From: Enterobacteria phage phiJLA23
Direction: 5' to 3' (one strand)
Sequence record: NC_047740.1
DNA: 43,017 bases
The notes under the pieces were generated by a model. That model did not search any database and was not told the origin of the DNA. It saw only the letters and a list, made by a program, of their open reading frames with translations. Position numbers and translations under genes: made by a program. Shown here in pieces: positions 13,884-43,017 of this stretch. How positions within the stretch are numbered: the first letter of the stretch is position 1; each line of letters opens with the position of its first letter.

Positions 13884-13968
13884 TTGTTTCGATTGTTTGA
13901 TTATATCTCAATAGCTACCAAAATAGCACCCCGANGGGTGCTTCTTCCTTGTCAAAAAGTGCTATTAA
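13884..13968 (-). promoter_or_regulatory. Terminator (13917-13945) plus TATAAT -10 and conserved leader; degenerate palindrome over capsid stop
   Basis: Hairpin gcaccc-loop-gggtgc then T-run on minus strand after capsid stop; TATAAT; leader as in other composite promoters. Confidence 0.5.
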
Positions 13969-14912: not shown

Positions 14913-14950
14913 ATTAAGATGCATCCTTTTGTTTATGAGTTTACGTGTCA

Positions 14951-15000
14951 ATTATACACGAGATTTTAATTGGAACAATAGAGTAATCATTTCTCTATTG
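14951..15000 (-). promoter_or_regulatory. Late promoter candidate: 8-bp inverted repeat caatagag/ctctattg (14976-15000) upstream of consensus TATAAT (14951-14956)
   Basis: Perfect TATAAT hexamer about 30 nt before capsid start; no recognisable -35, IR occupies that position. Confidence 0.4.
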
Positions 15001-15003
15001 ATT

Positions 15004-15823
15004 TTATGCATCAAGCCTTACAACTTCTATACACAGGTCTTGATTGTCGCTCACAACATAACCGACTGTAAATAGATTTATTGTTACTCTCCACGCCGTT
15101 CCTGTTGTGGTTTCATAAAAGCTAAAAACATATGGCCTTATTCTTTGAAATTCACCAATGCCAGTAACCAATGCTGTTCCAGTTACGGAAGATGAAGATA
15201 TTGCTGTCCTTACTGTTGTATTGAAGTAGTTATCTGTATTATTGAAGCCCTCAATATTACCTCTTATGTTCCTGGCAGTGCTTCCCTCATCAATCCAGGC
15301 TCTAATGCTAAAAGCANTTGGNGAATCAAGCCTTATACCACCGAGNNCNCNCCNNTCNTCGCCTTGAGGACCTNGCGGCCCCGCAGGGCCTGCCGGACCA
15401 GTGTCGACCTTGNGGCCNTGCNGCACCAGCTNCGCCTGCGGGACCTGCTGGACCNTGCGGACCAACCGGACCTTGTGGACCTGCTTCACCTGAACCCCCT
15501 CCTTCATCACTTGCAAAATCACCTTTAGCCAGAGCTGAAATATAAGCGCCATCCTCGAAGTGAGCATTGCCAAACCTTTTCCAGCCCTGCGCTAGATATC
15601 GGTTAACCCTGTTAACTAGCCCCTGAATTGTGGTGTCGGATGTAACCATGAAGTCTTCAACGTTGTTTGTTGTTCCTTTCGCCATCTTCATGCCAAAGAG
15701 GGTGCCGCTTAGCATCTGCACATCACCATATGGCTGAAAGCCTGATGACATCATCACTTTTACGTTCCTGGCTAAGATTTCAGGTGAATTCCCTACTGCC
15801 ATAGCAATTTCTGTGTAAGCCAT
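15004..15823 (-). CDS. Structural protein with collagen-like Gly-X-Y repeats (ORF disrupted by N-run 15300-15500)
   Basis: RBS aggaga 5 nt before ATG 15823; translation contains GEAGPQGPVGPxGPAGPAG; two overlapping ORFs (15326-15823, 15004-15573) rejoin if the N-rich tract is corrected. Confidence 0.5.
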
Positions 15824-15874: not shown

Positions 15875-15900
15875 AATAAAAAACCTCCCGAAGGAGGTTT
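15875..15900 (-). terminator. Rho-independent terminator (hairpin aacctcccgaaggaggtt + T-run)
   Basis: Minus strand: aacctccttcgggaggtt then tttttatt, after the 155-aa gene. Confidence 0.6.
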
Positions 15901-15916
15901 GATTTGGAGGTGATAA

Positions 15917-16384
15917 TTACTTCTGAATGACCTGGACTTCAACGAGCGCTGGTTCTCCAGATGCGGCATCAGCTGCCTGGAATCCACCTGCGAATGTCCA
16001 GTTAGTACCTAAGGCATCACCGCTTGTTGCTAACCCATTGGCATCAACGGTAACGGCGCTACCAAATGCAGGCGCTTCTGAAAGGCTAGTTGCCATCCAG
16101 ATTCGACCGTGAGTCATTACGTTAGCCACGGAGAAGTTGTCGACATTGCCAACAGCGCCACCGTAAGAACCGCGAGGGCTTTCATAGTGTGACTTAACCA
16201 GGACGCCGTAAACGTTACCAGATGCCGGGGCTACCAGCACCTTGTGACCATCAACAACTGAACCAACTCCAACAGCAGTGCCAACATTGCGCACGAGAGC
16301 CGAAGATGTTACACAGGCACCATCAATATTGTACAGAGAGGTATCTGCAACCATACCAGCAGTAGCTTGACGACGAATTGCCAT
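15917..16384 (-). CDS. Hypothetical structural protein (possible capsid decoration protein)
   Basis: 155 aa Gly/Ala/Val-rich; strong RBS aaggag 7 nt before ATG; between protease/scaffold and capsid genes. Confidence 0.45.
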   Translation of the reverse strand: MAIRRQATAGMVADTSLYNIDGACVTSSALVRNVGTAVGVGSVVDGHKVLVAPASGNVYGVLVKSHYESPRGSYGGAVGNVDNFSVANVMTHGRIWMATSLSEAPAFGSAVTVDANGLATSGDALGTNWTFAGGFQAADAASGEPALVEVQVIQK

Positions 16385-19494: not shown

Positions 19495-19700
19495 TAATTT
19501 CTCCAATAAAAACGCCCCTGGTAAGGGGCAGTTTATCATGATTACTTAACTCCAGCTAGCCTCATTAACCTAGNTCTTGGGTCGNNCNNNNNNNNNANNC
19601 CGTCTGNNTNNNCTTTNNANNTTTTNTANTCNATAAAAAAGCCCCTGAGTAAGGGGCAGTTTATCATGATTACTTAACTCCAGCTAGCCTCATTAACCTA
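19495..19700. repeat. Tandem duplicated segment (~19507-19575 and ~19631-19700) around an N-run: probable assembly artifact containing the terminase terminator
   Basis: Two near-identical copies of the large terminase 3' end plus terminator hairpin, separated by Ns 19575-19635. Confidence 0.7.
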
Positions 19701-23466: not shown

Positions 23467-23700
23467 ACTGAAATAAATATCACGNTNCTCACCACGCTNC
23501 TTTCGAAGTTCATAAGCCTTATTAAGCGACTCAATAGCTTCATCAAGGTCTGTTAANANGTCCTTGTGCCCACGCANNCCNCNNANGCGNGNNAACNCAN
23601 CNCGCTCAACAATAAGTACCATACCCTCATCAGCAAGGCATTCGGTGTCGAATCCGTGATTTTCGTGAAAGTAAACTGCCTCATCAACTTCAATTATGCN
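23467..23700 (-). CDS. Probable gene obscured by N-run (hypothetical protein)
   Basis: Long open frame on minus strand through 23485-23700; stop codon lies inside the palindrome copy; start unresolved. Confidence 0.25.
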
Positions 23701-24974: not shown

Positions 24975-25237
24975 TATTTAGTCTCCTTAATCATTTCCTG
25001 ATATGCGTTAATCATAGCTACCGCACCCTTCAGTTCATCTCCACTCATTCCTGCTACGCTGGGGAAAGCTTAAGTAGCCTAGCTTTAAACTCGCTTACCG
25101 CTTTCTCCCTTATTGGACTGTTTGTCTTAGCTCGNGGTTNCNTNNNNACNACGCNGAANTNCATNCAGAAGANNATTTTCTGTGCTGCGATGGACTTGGC
25201 TGCGTCGAATGTTTACCATTTATTTGAGGATTGAGAT

Positions 25238-30451: not shown

Positions 30452-30520
30452 TTTGTATCCTCTCGTTTTGTTTTGATGGAGTAAATATACCCCCTCTTTT
30501 NATTTGTNTTTTANTTNGTG
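30452..30520 (-). promoter_or_regulatory. Composite early promoter (TATATTTAC, leader CATCAAAACAAAAC; palindrome degraded by Ns)
   Basis: Module order conserved; upstream half-site region contains Ns. Confidence 0.35.
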
Positions 30521-30843
30521 CTAGTTCNTGTNTNCNTTNTNNNTNNNNTTTCTAGCGTATTCATCATCTCCTCAAGCTTCTCTGCATCAATAGAGGACTT
30601 AACCCATTGCAACTTCACATTGCCATCATTATCAACAAGGCTAGATACACCTTTAACCATGTAGCCCTGAGGAATTAGGTTACTCACATCGCGACCGTGA
30701 CCATCCCCAGCCTTAGCCAACTTGCTGCGACGCAGCTCTACGTTACGAATATTCATACCGTACTTCTCTGCGATTGCCTTGTTAGTCATACCGTTAGCCA
30801 GTTCTTGCTTTAACTCTTCGTTGGTGATTTTAGCTATAGACAT
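30511..30843 (-). CDS. Putative HTH DNA-binding protein (3' end uncertain, runs into N-run)
   Basis: N-terminal helix-turn-helix-like segment TNKAIAEKYGMNIRNVELRRSKL; ORF passes through Ns 30490-30550. Confidence 0.45.
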   Translation of the reverse strand: MSIAKITNEELKQELANGMTNKAIAEKYGMNIRNVELRRSKLAKAGDGHGRDVSNLIPQGYMVKGVSSLVDNDGNVKLQWVKSSIDAEKLEEMMNTLEXXXXXXTXTSXX

Positions 30844-39251: not shown

Positions 39252-39680
39252 TTAAAACGGAATATCATCTTCATCACTAAATCGGCTTTGTTGCTGCGGC
39301 TGCTGTCTCTGTTGCTGTTGAGCTTGTTGTCGCTGCTGCTGCTGTTCTGATTCACCTCCTCGCTGACTAAACATCAATCGAGGATTCTGCAACTCAAGCG
39401 TAATATATGTCTTGCCATTATGTTCGCGCTCATTAACCGCTAATGAATCGCCGCTCACAGAGATAACTTTTCCTTCCTGAAATGCTTCGTCATACCAGCT
39501 AATTTGCGCCTCGCTAGCAAAGAAGGTAGCTCGATAATTACTATACTTACGCTCTCCATCTCGTGTTTTATAAGATTCGCTCATTTCGATAGCGTACATC
39601 TTCCAGTTACCCTTGGCGTTCTGACCATCTTTACTGAACAGCGTCTTACCAACCATATCTAAGAATTTGTCCCAATTCAT
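39252..39680 (-). CDS. Single-stranded DNA-binding protein (SSB)
   Basis: OB-fold-like N-terminus, Gln-rich linker, canonical acidic C-terminal tail ending DEDDIPF. Confidence 0.8.
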   Translation of the reverse strand: MNWDKFLDMVGKTLFSKDGQNAKGNWKMYAIEMSESYKTRDGERKYSNYRATFFASEAQISWYDEAFQEGKVISVSGDSLAVNEREHNGKTYITLELQNPRLMFSQRGGESEQQQQRQQAQQQQRQQPQQQSRFSDEDDIPF

Positions 39681-42304: not shown

Positions 42305-42720
42305 GCATTTTCTCCTTAACAGGAAATCAAACATAGTATTTTAGTAAAACACAACAACATAGCTATAGAGAGTAGTTACAAGATATACATAGTAATATAT
42401 ATAATAATAATAATACTCTAAACCCTTATTATATAAGGATTTATAAATGTAACTAATGCGTATCTTCGCGTAAAAAGCGTATACAATTTTCAGCGGATGA
42501 GATTGTATACATCGAGTTACATCGGTTACGCGTATATAAAATAGCNNGTTTTNTAAAAAACANNACAGNAGNCTTTTCCTTTANTACCNCCATCAAAACA
42601 AAANATACTGACTAAGGAATAAAAAATGAANAACTTCATAAAATCAGCAATCATCGCAGCAGCAGAACTNATGACGGTAGNTTGTTTCTGGTGNNCNCCC
42701 CCTTGACGGNTGGTGGGGGC
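42305..42720. repeat. Contig wrap-around overlap, copy 2 (low-quality duplicate of ~42-470)
   Basis: Matches window start including lipoprotein 5' end; many Ns. Confidence 0.8.
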
Positions 42721-43017
42721 TNGTGGGGGGNGGTGNTGNGGTGNTTGNNTGGCGAAGGTGGTNAGGTAGGGTNATGGTGTGNGCTGTNGAGTTTGTTTAN
42801 TTCGTNTTGNGNNNGNTGNTTNNNAGNGTNGGTATGNGNTGGGACGGGTCGNGNNGCANNGTNNNGNGTNGANGNNNNGGNNGNNNGANNNNNNNNGNCN
42901 NNGNNNNNNANNGNNNANANNNTTNNNNNNNNANNNGNNNNCNNNGTANNGTATTTAGAATAGGAACGGAACGGCAGACAAGTAGGAAATTACAGTCGTG
43001 GTCGTTAGAGTTACCGG

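What the first reader, a model, noticed from the sequence alone, without database searches (positions are those of the whole stretch)
15004..15823. Collagen-like Gly-X-Y repeat protein in the head module, coinciding with an N-rich tract
The gene between the decoration-like protein and the major capsid gene encodes GEAGPQGPVGPxGPAGPAG. The GC-rich triplet repeat coincides with Ns at 15300-15500, which split it into two overlapping ORFs. A collagen-like segment in a head-module protein suggests a capsid fibre or decoration protein.
Basis: seen in the sequence. Interest (0 to 1): 0.55.

Follow-up and report, generated by a model that had tools for sequence, protein, structure and literature searches.

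The report
Collagen-like virion fibre gene, mis-assembled
The gene is real and encodes a collagen-like virion protein, probably a fibre anchored on the phage head, but its split into two N-riddled reading frames is an assembly artefact that removed about 630 bases from this genome record.

Summary
A minus-strand gene at 15004-15823 has Gly-X-Y repeats, 15 scattered Ns (15317-15455) and a frameshift giving two overlapping ORFs.

The split is very probably an artefact. The window appears to be phage phiJLA23 (43,017 bp, 454 reads, Geneious). At 1,804 of 1,850 sites where phages C119 and JK06 differ, it matches C119. Yet it lacks all six C119-specific insertions of 80 nt or more. It is also colinear with the JK06 record. 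This looks like reads of a C119-like phage mapped onto JK06, which carries a short 278-aa allele. The true gene is probably about 481 aa: tandem DUF1737-like N-terminal domain, 33 GXY triplets, a weak CBM5/12-like match, 29 GXY triplets, then a beta-sandwich tip.

- The Rogue1 homologue gp21 was found by mass spectrometry in purified virions.
- DUF1737 was reported in 2026 as a hexon-centre capsid-binding domain in phage phi24B.
- The gene always lies between the cement-protein and major-capsid genes.
- SPP1 gp12 is a collagen-like precedent on a capsid.

RefSeq's "tail fiber" label is the main rival, and GenBank's "DNA polymerase I" is wrong. Interest is moderate to low.

The parts
15004..15823 (-). 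Collapsed, frameshifted copy of the collagen-like virion protein gene. Homologues are C119 gp03, Rogue1 gp21 and JK06 JK_26. An AGGAG ribosome-binding site lies 7 nt upstream of the ATG at 15823.
   Evidence: PHROG 5073 at 3.7e-43 (N-terminal part) and 7.1e-11 (C-terminal part)
15509..15823 (-). N-terminal domain (aa 1-105): two tandem DUF1737-like beta-alpha-beta-beta units. Putative capsid anchor.
   Evidence: Pfam DUF1737 24.3 bits against a cut-off of 24; AF2 pLDDT 85.2 with strands and helices E5-11 H14-26 E30-39 E42-49 / E54-63 H66-78 E82-90 E93-102; first half against second half by hhalign 97.3%, E 2.6e-11; hhalign to phi24B gp84 N-terminus 96.8%
15419..15499 (-). First Gly-X-Y run (9 triplets, reading frame of the start codon). 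This is the start of collagen tract 1.
15355..15399 (-). Second Gly-X-Y run (about 5 triplets, shifted frame). Corresponds to C119 residues around 156-170 of collagen tract 1.
15317..15455 (.). Low-quality, mis-assembled stretch: 15 N calls, 2 extra bases, a 45-nt gap and a junction skipping about 594 nt relative to C119. The junction lands at ..LSV|GIRLDS in the C-terminal domain.
15007..15339 (-). C-terminal distal domain, lacking about its first 30 residues. Predicted 8-strand beta-sandwich.
15881..15900 (-). Terminator-like hairpin with T-run, between the cement-protein gene and the collagen-like gene.
   Evidence: the same element is annotated in phage MM01
15917..16384 (-). Upstream neighbour: capsid cement/decoration protein.
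   Evidence: Pfam Phage_cement PF22758, 80.5 bits
13965..14924 (-). Downstream neighbour: major capsid protein.
   Evidence: Pfam Major_capside on the Logan homologue

Best explanation
The locus holds one real gene for an accessory, collagen-like virion fibre protein found in a subset of T1-like (Drexlerviridae) coliphages.

In intact form (C119, phiKP26, Rogue1; 481 aa) the protein has five parts:
- an N-terminal module of two tandem DUF1737-like units;
- a 33-triplet collagen tract;
- a short CBM5/12-like stretch (sub-threshold Pfam match);
- a 29-triplet collagen tract;
- a variable C-terminal beta-sandwich.

Proposed mechanism (inferred). Three chains form a collagen triple helix. Their 3 x 2 = 6 DUF1737-like units sit at the centre of a capsid hexon, as the six DUF1737 domains of phi24B gp84 do. 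This projects a thin fibre, roughly 50 nm long, tipped with a ligand- or glycan-binding domain. The fibre is dispensable for assembly and may aid adsorption or retention on surfaces.

In this window (phiJLA23) the gene is not truly split. The record was built by laying C119-type reads on the JK06 reference, whose allele is short. About 630 nt were therefore lost, and the consensus across the junction became a mosaic with Ns and a frameshift.

Shown: the gene family and its architecture, virion association of a homologue, the tandem duplication, homology to the phi24B capsid-binding domain, and the assembly signature. Inferred: head rather than tail attachment, trimer stoichiometry, and function of the tip.
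For: Artefact:
- The flanks of the gene are 99-100% identical to C119, but about 626 nt are missing and the junction region carries Ns and indels.
- Genome-wide, at 1,850 sites where JK06 and C119 differ, the window matches C119 at 1,804 and JK06 at 39. Yet 6 of 6 C119-specific insertions of 80 nt or more (283, 552, 609, 83, 324, 508 nt) are absent.
- Segments where JK06 and C119 are only 43-81% identical are dropped.
- The window is colinear with the JK06 record and reproduces a JK06-specific duplicated segment with C119-type bases.
- N clusters sit at these junctions.
- The phiJLA23 paper reports 43,017 bp, GS Junior 454, Geneious assembly, and JK06 as the comparison genome. BFVD lists a 158-aa phiJLA23 protein with a 100% identical N-terminus.

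Protein:
- Collagen Pfam E 2.7e-27 in C119.
- DUF1737 at or above the Pfam cut-off in the window's N-terminal domain (24.3 bits), JK06 (24.1), three phage homologues (26.7-31.6 bits) and three metagenomic homologues (25.4-29.6 bits).
- Confident AF2 model of two beta-alpha-beta-beta units and an internal repeat at E 2.6e-11.
- hhalign to phi24B gp84 N-terminus 96.8%, with a shared EGWQPYG motif.
- The phi24B cryo-EM preprint shows DUF1737 hexamers on hexon centres.
- Rogue1 gp21 was detected by mass spectrometry as one of three analysed bands of about six from purified virions.
- The gene lies directly upstream of the major capsid gene, with the cement-protein gene upstream (sometimes with an extra gene between), in all seven phages whose locus was inspected: C119, JK06, Rogue1, AugustePiccard, MM01, Sd1 and e4/1c.
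- SPP1 gp12 is a collagen-like trimer on hexon centres, at 180 copies, and non-essential.
- Dispensability: a Logan contig carries the gene with a nonsense codon, a frameshift and an 18-nt deletion.
Against: - No structure or localisation exists for any member of this family. Head attachment is inferred from a borderline Pfam match, profile homology and synteny.
- The phi24B anchoring loop with Tyr42 is 4 residues shorter and lacks the Tyr here. The capsids also differ (T=9 podovirus against a T1-like siphovirus), so the binding mode may not transfer.
- The phi24B result is an unreviewed preprint.
- Foldseek against PDB found nothing significant for the N-terminal model. BFVD matches to annotated DUF1737 proteins are weak (E 0.17-1.6).
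- RefSeq and PHROG 5073 call the protein a tail fibre. The collagen plus CBM-like shaft resembles Stx-phage tail fibres.
- Head fibres were not reported in the Rogue1 electron microscopy.
- For the artefact claim, reads are not available. HNH-gene absences could be natural on their own.
Confidence: 0.62

Rival explanations
1. The protein is a tail fibre, or a side or whisker fibre attached to the tail or neck, as RefSeq and PHROG annotate it. Its position in the head module would then be incidental.
For: - PHROG 5073 'tail fiber protein' at E 5e-166 for C119. Many collagen-containing tail-fibre PHROGs match the shaft.
- The Rogue1 annotation notes similarity to a Stx2 phage 86 long tail fibre.
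- The phi24B lateral tail fibre gp61 also has a long collagen-like shaft.
- A weak CBM5/12-like match (E 0.003) is typical of fibre proteins.
Against: - The tail-fibre label rests on the low-complexity collagen/CBM shaft only.
- The N-terminal attachment module is DUF1737-like, not a tail-attachment domain.
- In all seven loci inspected the gene is directly upstream of the major capsid gene, with the cement-protein gene upstream of it, far from the tail-tip genes.
- These phages encode separate tail fibre proteins elsewhere, for example C119 gp20 and gp29.
- The protein gave an SDS-PAGE band that was analysed alongside the major capsid and major tail proteins. This fits a high-copy better than a low-copy component, although the gel image was not seen.
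Confidence: 0.22
2. The truncation and frameshift are real: phiJLA23 carries a natural deletion or pseudogene of this accessory gene.
For: - The gene is dispensable and length-variable. JK06 has a clean 278-aa allele.
- An independent Logan contig has a decayed copy with a nonsense codon and a frameshift.
- Collagen repeats are recombination-prone. Kropinski et al. noted GPVGP repeats at the deletion borders.
Against: - The junction does not lie between homologous repeats. It joins collagen tract 1 to the middle of the C-terminal domain, within a stretch full of Ns and single-base indels.
- Similar collapsed or rearranged junctions recur at other N clusters of the record.
- 6 of 6 C119-type insertions are missing while 97.5% of the discriminating single-base sites are C119-type.
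- The local length mimics the JK06 reference to within 17 nt.
Confidence: 0.07
3. The two ORFs are separate genes, or the protein is a DNA polymerase I as in the GenBank annotations of phiJLA23, C119, phiKP26 and JK06.
For: Only the deposited annotations, together with PHROG 22681 'DNA polymerase', which is built from those same N-terminal fragments.
Against: - No polymerase domain appears in Pfam.
- Kropinski et al. state explicitly that the JK06 label is incorrect.
- Intact single ORFs exist in close relatives.
Confidence: 0.01

Closest known systems
Bacillus phage SPP1 gp12, a collagen-like auxiliary capsid protein
   Same: - Has a collagen-like Gly-X-Y central region.
- Is a non-essential accessory virion protein.
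- gp12 trimers bind the centre of each hexon of a T=7 siphovirus capsid, at 180 copies.
- From my own knowledge of the SPP1 gene order (11 scaffold, 12, 13 major capsid protein), its gene also sits in the head module immediately upstream of the major capsid gene. This was not checked with a tool.
   Different: - gp12 is only 6.6 kDa, with a short collagen stretch and no globular anchor or tip.
- The protein here is about 47 kDa, with a tandem DUF1737-like anchor, two long collagen tracts, a weak CBM5/12-like match and a beta-sandwich tip.
- Sequence homology to gp12 was not tested.
- Capsid binding has not been shown for this family.
Stx phage phi24B gp84 (vb_24B_21, NanS-p-type esterase) N-terminal DUF1737 capsid-binding domain
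   Same: - Profile homology of the N-terminal unit: hhalign 96.8%, E 2.6e-10, with a shared EGWQPYG motif.
- The same helix plus three-strand topology is predicted.
- The domain is N-terminal and carries a different 'cargo' on its C-terminal side.
   Different: - gp84 has one DUF1737 unit, forms hexamers, carries an esterase that is cleaved off, and is encoded next to stx rather than in the head module.
- Here the unit is duplicated in tandem and the cargo is a collagen fibre.
- The Tyr42 'tooth' loop is shortened and lacks the Tyr.
- The capsids differ (T=9 podovirus against a T1-like siphovirus).
Prophage and Stx-phage collagen-like tail fibres (for example phi24B gp61, E. coli O157 prophage collagen-like proteins)
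   Same: - Long Gly-X-Y shafts.
- A small C-terminal globular domain.
   Different: - Those proteins have tail-attachment N-terminal domains and are encoded in tail modules.
- This one has a DUF1737-like N-terminus and a head-module position.
Hoc (T4) and pb10 (T5) hexon-centre decoration proteins with Ig-like distal domains
   Same: - The general logic is the same: a dispensable protein at hexon centres displaying beta-sandwich adhesion domains.
- The C-terminal domain here is a generic Ig/CBM-like sandwich.
   Different: - Those are monomers without a collagen stalk.
- No sequence relationship was detected or tested.

Membership tests
Collagen triple-helix repeat (Pfam PF01391) | Long uninterrupted Gly-X-Y run scoring above the Pfam gathering cut-off (27.2 bits) | tested here: not met
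   The window as deposited has 9 triplets in one frame and about 5 in another, scoring 15.2 bits. The intact homologue in C119, whose flanks are 99-100% identical, has 33 + 29 triplets and scores 94.7 bits. The feature is therefore met for the gene family, but not by this damaged copy.
Collagen triple-helix repeat (Pfam PF01391) | Formation of a trimeric triple helix | not testable with these tools
   This needs circular dichroism or melting, collagenase sensitivity, or a structure. Only monomer AF2 jobs were available.
DUF1737 (Pfam PF08410) | Profile score at or above the gathering cut-off (24 bits) | tested here: met
   The match is borderline in the window: 24.3 bits for aa 1-111, but 22.5 bits in the 165-aa ORF. 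JK06 scores 24.1. It is clearer in homologues: 26.7, 31.1 and 31.6 bits and 28.6, 29.6 and 25.4 bits. Both halves match in different homologues.
DUF1737 (Pfam PF08410) | Fold of one alpha-helix plus three antiparallel strands, homologous to the phi24B gp84 N-terminal domain | tested here: met
   The AF2 model (pLDDT 85.2) shows two beta-alpha-beta-beta units. hhalign to gp84 residues 1-60 gives 96.8%, E 2.6e-10. Weak Foldseek matches to annotated DUF1737 viral proteins were found (probability 0.72-0.99, E 0.17-1.6).
DUF1737 as capsid-binding decoration (phi24B gp84 type) | Anchoring loop with Tyr42 inserting between capsid-protein helices at the hexon pore | tested here: not met
   In the hhalign alignment the corresponding hairpin loop is 4 residues shorter and has no Tyr.
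DUF1737 as capsid-binding decoration (phi24B gp84 type) | Physical binding at hexon centres | not testable with these tools
   This needs cryo-EM or binding assays. The only indirect support is virion presence of Rogue1 gp21 and synteny.
SPP1 gp12-like collagen-like auxiliary capsid protein | Gene in the head module immediately upstream of the major capsid gene, and non-essential | tested here: met
   The position is conserved in seven phages. A decayed copy in a Logan contig argues for dispensability. So does the Rogue1 annotation, which lists RTP homologues for both neighbours (rtp26, rtp27) but none for gp21.
SPP1 gp12-like collagen-like auxiliary capsid protein | Sequence homology to gp12 | not tested
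   The gp12 sequence was not retrieved. Given the low-complexity collagen sequence, a match would be uninformative.
Phage tail fibre (RefSeq / PHROG 5073 label) | Tail-attachment N-terminal domain and a position among tail or baseplate genes | tested here: not met
   The N-terminus is DUF1737-like. The gene lies between the cement-protein and capsid genes, while tail genes start several genes downstream.
DNA polymerase I (GenBank label) | Polymerase or exonuclease domains | tested here: not met
   No such Pfam match was found. The label is called incorrect in PMC3496638.

The most novel reading that the evidence does not exclude
Rogunavirus gp21-type proteins may be long (about 50 nm) collagen-like head fibres, up to 60 per capsid.

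Each fibre would be a trimer whose three chains each contribute two tandem DUF1737 units. This would build a six-domain ring that matches the six-fold hexon centre. It would resolve the three-fold against six-fold symmetry mismatch that SPP1 gp12 tolerates and that phi24B gp84 avoids by being hexameric.

The swappable beta-sandwich tips would mediate glycan or mucus adherence of gut coliphages.

This architecture has not been described in the papers searched.
Probability: 0.35. Interest if true: 0.6.

Novelty: new variant of a known kind. Interest (0 to 1): 0.36.

Why it matters
For this record, the finding flags phiJLA23 (KC333879) as a reference-biased consensus rather than a complete genome. 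It is missing about 630 nt of this gene and several other kilobase-scale segments. Its "DNA polymerase I" label has propagated into protein family resources (PHROG 22681).

Biologically, if the head-fibre reading is right, several things follow:
- T1-like coliphages would carry a collagen-stalked capsid adhesin that uses the recently recognised DUF1737 capsid anchor.
- DUF1737 would then be a portable capsid-display module.
- These phages are notorious for environmental persistence and are used as O157 biocontrol agents.
- A natural, dispensable scaffold for phage display on a siphovirus head would be available.

This extends known themes (SPP1 gp12, Hoc, pb10, phi24B gp84). It is not a new principle.

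Tried and rejected
- The search for homologous proteins with the N- and C-terminal domains returned only one fragment each. The exhaustive HMMER search gave 18 hits, of which about 10 are true family members. The rest are multi-stretch spurious matches.
- The PDB sequence search gave only repeated sub-significant matches of a 22-residue segment to designed TPR proteins. These were rejected as spurious.
- Foldseek of the N-terminal model against PDB found nothing with E < 0.3. The afdb50 library was unavailable.
- I tested whether the SGNH-esterase 'head decoration' protein encoded next to this gene in Sd1 and AugustePiccard shares the DUF1737-like anchor. It does not (hhalign probability 0.9%).
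- Programmed frameshifting or phase variation was considered for the two overlapping ORFs. It was rejected because the frameshift lies inside an N-rich mosaic, intact relatives read straight through, and the whole record shows the same artefact pattern.
- Simple repeat collapse between the two collagen tracts was considered. It was rejected because the junction lands outside collagen tract 2, in the C-terminal domain. Mapping to the short JK06 allele explains the local length to within 17 nt.
- An intein in the JK06-missing region was already considered and rejected by Kropinski et al..

Full report
**What is in the sequence**

The feature is on the minus strand. An ATG at 15823, preceded by AGGAG, opens a frame that reads MAYTEIAMAV.... 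After about 108 residues it enters GGSGEAGPQGPVGPXGPAGPAGXAG. A different frame ends at a stop at 15004-15006 and contains DTGPAGPAGPXGPQG, followed by a non-collagen C-terminal region.
- The two mechanical ORFs are 15326-15823 and 15004-15573, in different frames.
- There are 15 isolated N calls between 15317 and 15455, not a block.
- As deposited, the window has 9 consecutive G-X-Y triplets in one frame and about 5 in the other.
- It scores only 15.2 bits against Pfam Collagen, below the 27.2 cut-off.

**Identity of the window**

Megablast places the region in the Rogunavirus group of T1-like phages (Drexlerviridae). Identity is 98.5% to Escherichia phage C119 and 98.2% to phiKP26. It is about 86% to Rogue1 and JK06.

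The phiJLA23 genome announcement describes a genome of exactly 43,017 bp and 44.2% G+C. It was sequenced on a GS Junior 454, assembled in Geneious, and compared with JK06 (PMC3587941). BFVD holds a 158-aa 'Putative DNA polymerase I [Enterobacteria phage phiJLA23]' whose N-terminus is 100% identical to the window's. On this evidence the window is phiJLA23 (KC333879).

**Why the gene is split**

In C119, phiKP26 and Rogue1 the homologous gene is one 1,446-nt ORF of 481 aa. In JK06 it is 837 nt, or 278 aa. Against C119 the window is 99-100% identical on both flanks. It lacks a 45-nt piece and a further stretch of about 594 nt, and it has two extra bases and many Ns in between. The junction joins collagen tract 1 directly to ...GIRLDS, inside the C-terminal domain.

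This is not peculiar to this gene. The whole window aligns to C119 in 13 blocks of 94.4-99.97% identity, all but the low-quality last block at 98.2% or more. Most N clusters sit at block junctions where the window lacks or duplicates sequence.

Three-way alignments give a clear signature:
- At 1,850 sites where JK06 and C119 differ, the window carries the C119 base at 1,804, the JK06 base at 39, and neither at 7.
- All six insertions of 80 nt or more that C119 has relative to JK06 are absent from the window. Their lengths are 283, 552, 609 (this gene), 83, 324 and 508 nt.
- Segments that both phages have, but which are only 43-81% identical between them, are also missing.
- A JK06-specific duplicated segment is reproduced with C119-type bases.

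The window is colinear with the JK06 record's coordinates. Across this gene its length differs from JK06 by only 17 nt.

The simplest reading is that reads of a C119-like phage were mapped onto JK06 and a consensus was called. Where the sample had extra or divergent DNA, the reads were forced or dropped. This produced the mosaic, the Ns and the frameshift. I put this at about 0.9. A genuine deletion in phiJLA23 cannot be excluded without reads or PCR.

**What the gene encodes**

Pfam and PHROG searches show the following for the intact C119 protein:
- two collagen tracts of 33 and 29 triplets (Collagen 94.7 bits, E 2.7e-27);
- a weak CBM_5_12-like match between them (E 0.003, below threshold);
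- a DUF1737 match at the N-terminus;
- membership of PHROG 5073, which is labelled 'tail fiber protein'.

The N-terminal 111 residues of the window score 24.3 bits on DUF1737, against a cut-off of 24. Homologues in MM01, e4/1c and AugustePiccard, and in metagenomes, score 25-32 bits. Either the first or the second half matches, depending on the homologue.

An AlphaFold2 model built on seven sequences is confident (pLDDT 85.2, pTM 0.76). It shows two consecutive beta-alpha-beta-beta units. A profile comparison of the two halves gives 97.3% probability, E 2.6e-11, so the domain is a tandem duplication.

**Where the protein is likely to sit**

Four lines of evidence point to the capsid.
1. *Virion presence.* Kropinski et al. 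resolved about six bands from CsCl-purified Rogue1. By mass spectrometry they identified the 52.7-kDa band as gp21, the 481-aa homologue, with 59.5% coverage. It was analysed alongside the major capsid and major tail proteins (PMC3496638). So it is a virion protein. It was visible enough to be picked with the two most abundant ones, although I could not inspect the gel. That paper did not recognise the collagen character. It noted GPVGP repeats at the borders of the JK06-missing region and considered an intein.
2. *The anchor domain.* A 2026 preprint on Stx phage phi24B shows by cryo-EM that the DUF1737 domain of the esterase gp84 forms hexamers on the central pore of hexons. The family profile here aligns to gp84 residues 1-60 with 96.8% probability, E 2.6e-10, and a shared EGWQPYG motif.
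3. *Synteny.* The gene was found in 22 phage records. In all seven loci inspected it lies directly upstream of the major capsid gene. A Phage_cement family gene lies upstream of it, sometimes with an extra gene between, and terminator-like hairpins flank it.
4. *Precedent.* SPP1 gp12 is a collagen-like trimer that binds hexon centres at 180 copies and is non-essential.

The gene here also appears dispensable. RTP has homologues of both neighbours but none is listed for gp21. A Logan assembly also carries a JK06-like short allele with a GGA-to-TGA nonsense codon, a 1-nt deletion and an 18-nt deletion.

**Proposed mechanism and its limits**

I propose that three chains form a collagen helix whose 3 x 2 DUF1737-like units occupy the six-fold hexon centre. 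The helix would project a flexible fibre. By my own estimate, 62 triplets at about 0.86 nm each gives about 50 nm, plus domains. The fibre would end in a variable beta-sandwich that binds a surface ligand.

None of this has been observed for this family.
- The phi24B 'tooth' loop (Tyr42) is four residues shorter here and has no tyrosine.
- The capsids are different.
- The DUF1737 score in this window is borderline.
- The phi24B work is a preprint.

The main rival is the database label 'tail fiber', at about 0.2. It rests on the collagen/CBM shaft, which is shared with real tail fibres. It does not explain the N-terminal domain or the gene position.

The GenBank label 'DNA polymerase I' has no support. 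Kropinski et al. already called it incorrect for the JK06 homologue.

**Novelty and verdict**

The gene family is already in databases, and a homologue is a published virion protein. Collagen-like capsid binders and DUF1737 capsid anchors are each known. What appears undescribed is their combination: a tandem DUF1737 anchor with a long collagen stalk and swappable tip in T1-like coliphages. Searches combining Rogue1, Drexlerviridae or T1-like with collagen, decoration or cryo-EM found nothing relevant. I rate it a new variant of a known kind.

The window-specific feature, the N-rich split, is an artefact and of curation interest only. Overall interest is 0.36. If the 3 x 2 head-fibre model were confirmed, it would deserve about 0.6.

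Noticed in passing
window 1-43017; N clusters at 14-32, 19574-19632, 23485-23602, 25135-25174, 30501-30548, 42546-42950: The whole record behaves like a consensus of C119-type reads on the JK06 reference. Relative to C119 it lacks about 166 nt at 23.58 kb, about 1,324 nt at 25.15 kb and about 1,419 nt at 30.5 kb. The last gap removes most of the DNA-repair exonuclease gene. It also shows duplicated or rearranged sequence at about 19.6 kb and about 31.9 kb. Any gene call next to an N cluster in this window should be distrusted.
   Followed up: yes
window 13919/13920, 39638-39655, 7144: Three C119 insertions are cleanly absent: HNH endonuclease gp05 (552 nt), HNH gp27 (about 510-530 nt) and a 283-nt segment holding the small gp16 ORF. 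These are also absent from JK06. It cannot be told whether phiJLA23 really lacks them or whether the reference-guided assembly removed them.
   Followed up: partly
window 15917-16384 (-): The 'decoration-like' neighbour is a clear member of Pfam Phage_cement PF22758 (the E217 gp24 / Pam3 gp6 type), at 80.5 bits. These phages would therefore carry a trimeric cement protein as well as the putative hexon-centre fibre.
   Followed up: partly
L009 1199-2016 (Logan SRR27751963 contig): An independent short-read assembly carries a JK06-like short allele of the gene broken into three ORFs. It has GGA-to-TGA at codon 50, a 1-nt deletion just before the collagen tract and an extra 18-nt deletion. This suggests that the short allele is real and that the gene decays in some lineages.
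   Followed up: partly
L006 2127-3419 (Sd1 gp45) and L004 2084-3373 (AugustePiccard bas01_0009): In some Drexlerviridae the same slot between the cement and capsid genes holds an additional protein of about 430 aa. It has a GDSL/SGNH esterase domain and is annotated 'head decoration' or 'head outer capsid protein'. Its N-terminus is unrelated to DUF1737 (hhalign 0.9%). The slot looks like a hot-spot for capsid-display cargo, which recalls the esterase displayed on phi24B.
   Followed up: partly
PHROG 22681; GenBank records of phiJLA23, C119, phiKP26, JK06, Sf12 and the Opt-719 group: The erroneous 'DNA polymerase (I)' name of the JK06 fragment has propagated to many records. It has also reached a PHROG family filed under nucleotide metabolism, which is built from the N-terminal DUF1737-like fragment.
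   Followed up: partly
L002 2627-3463 (JK06 JK_26) compared with L003 2628-4073 (Rogue1 gp21): The JK06 short allele equals the long allele with an in-frame deletion between two QGPVGP(Q)GP repeats. This removes most of both collagen tracts and the CBM-like stretch, so fibre length varies by recombination within the Gly-X-Y repeats.
   Followed up: partly
window 14944-14960 and 13925-13942: Short hairpins follow the collagen-like gene (CGTGTATAATTGACACG, without a clear T-run) and the capsid gene (AGCACCC-N-TCGGGGTGCT). MM01 annotates a terminator after almost every head gene. This suggests graded read-through control of head-protein stoichiometry.
   Followed up: no
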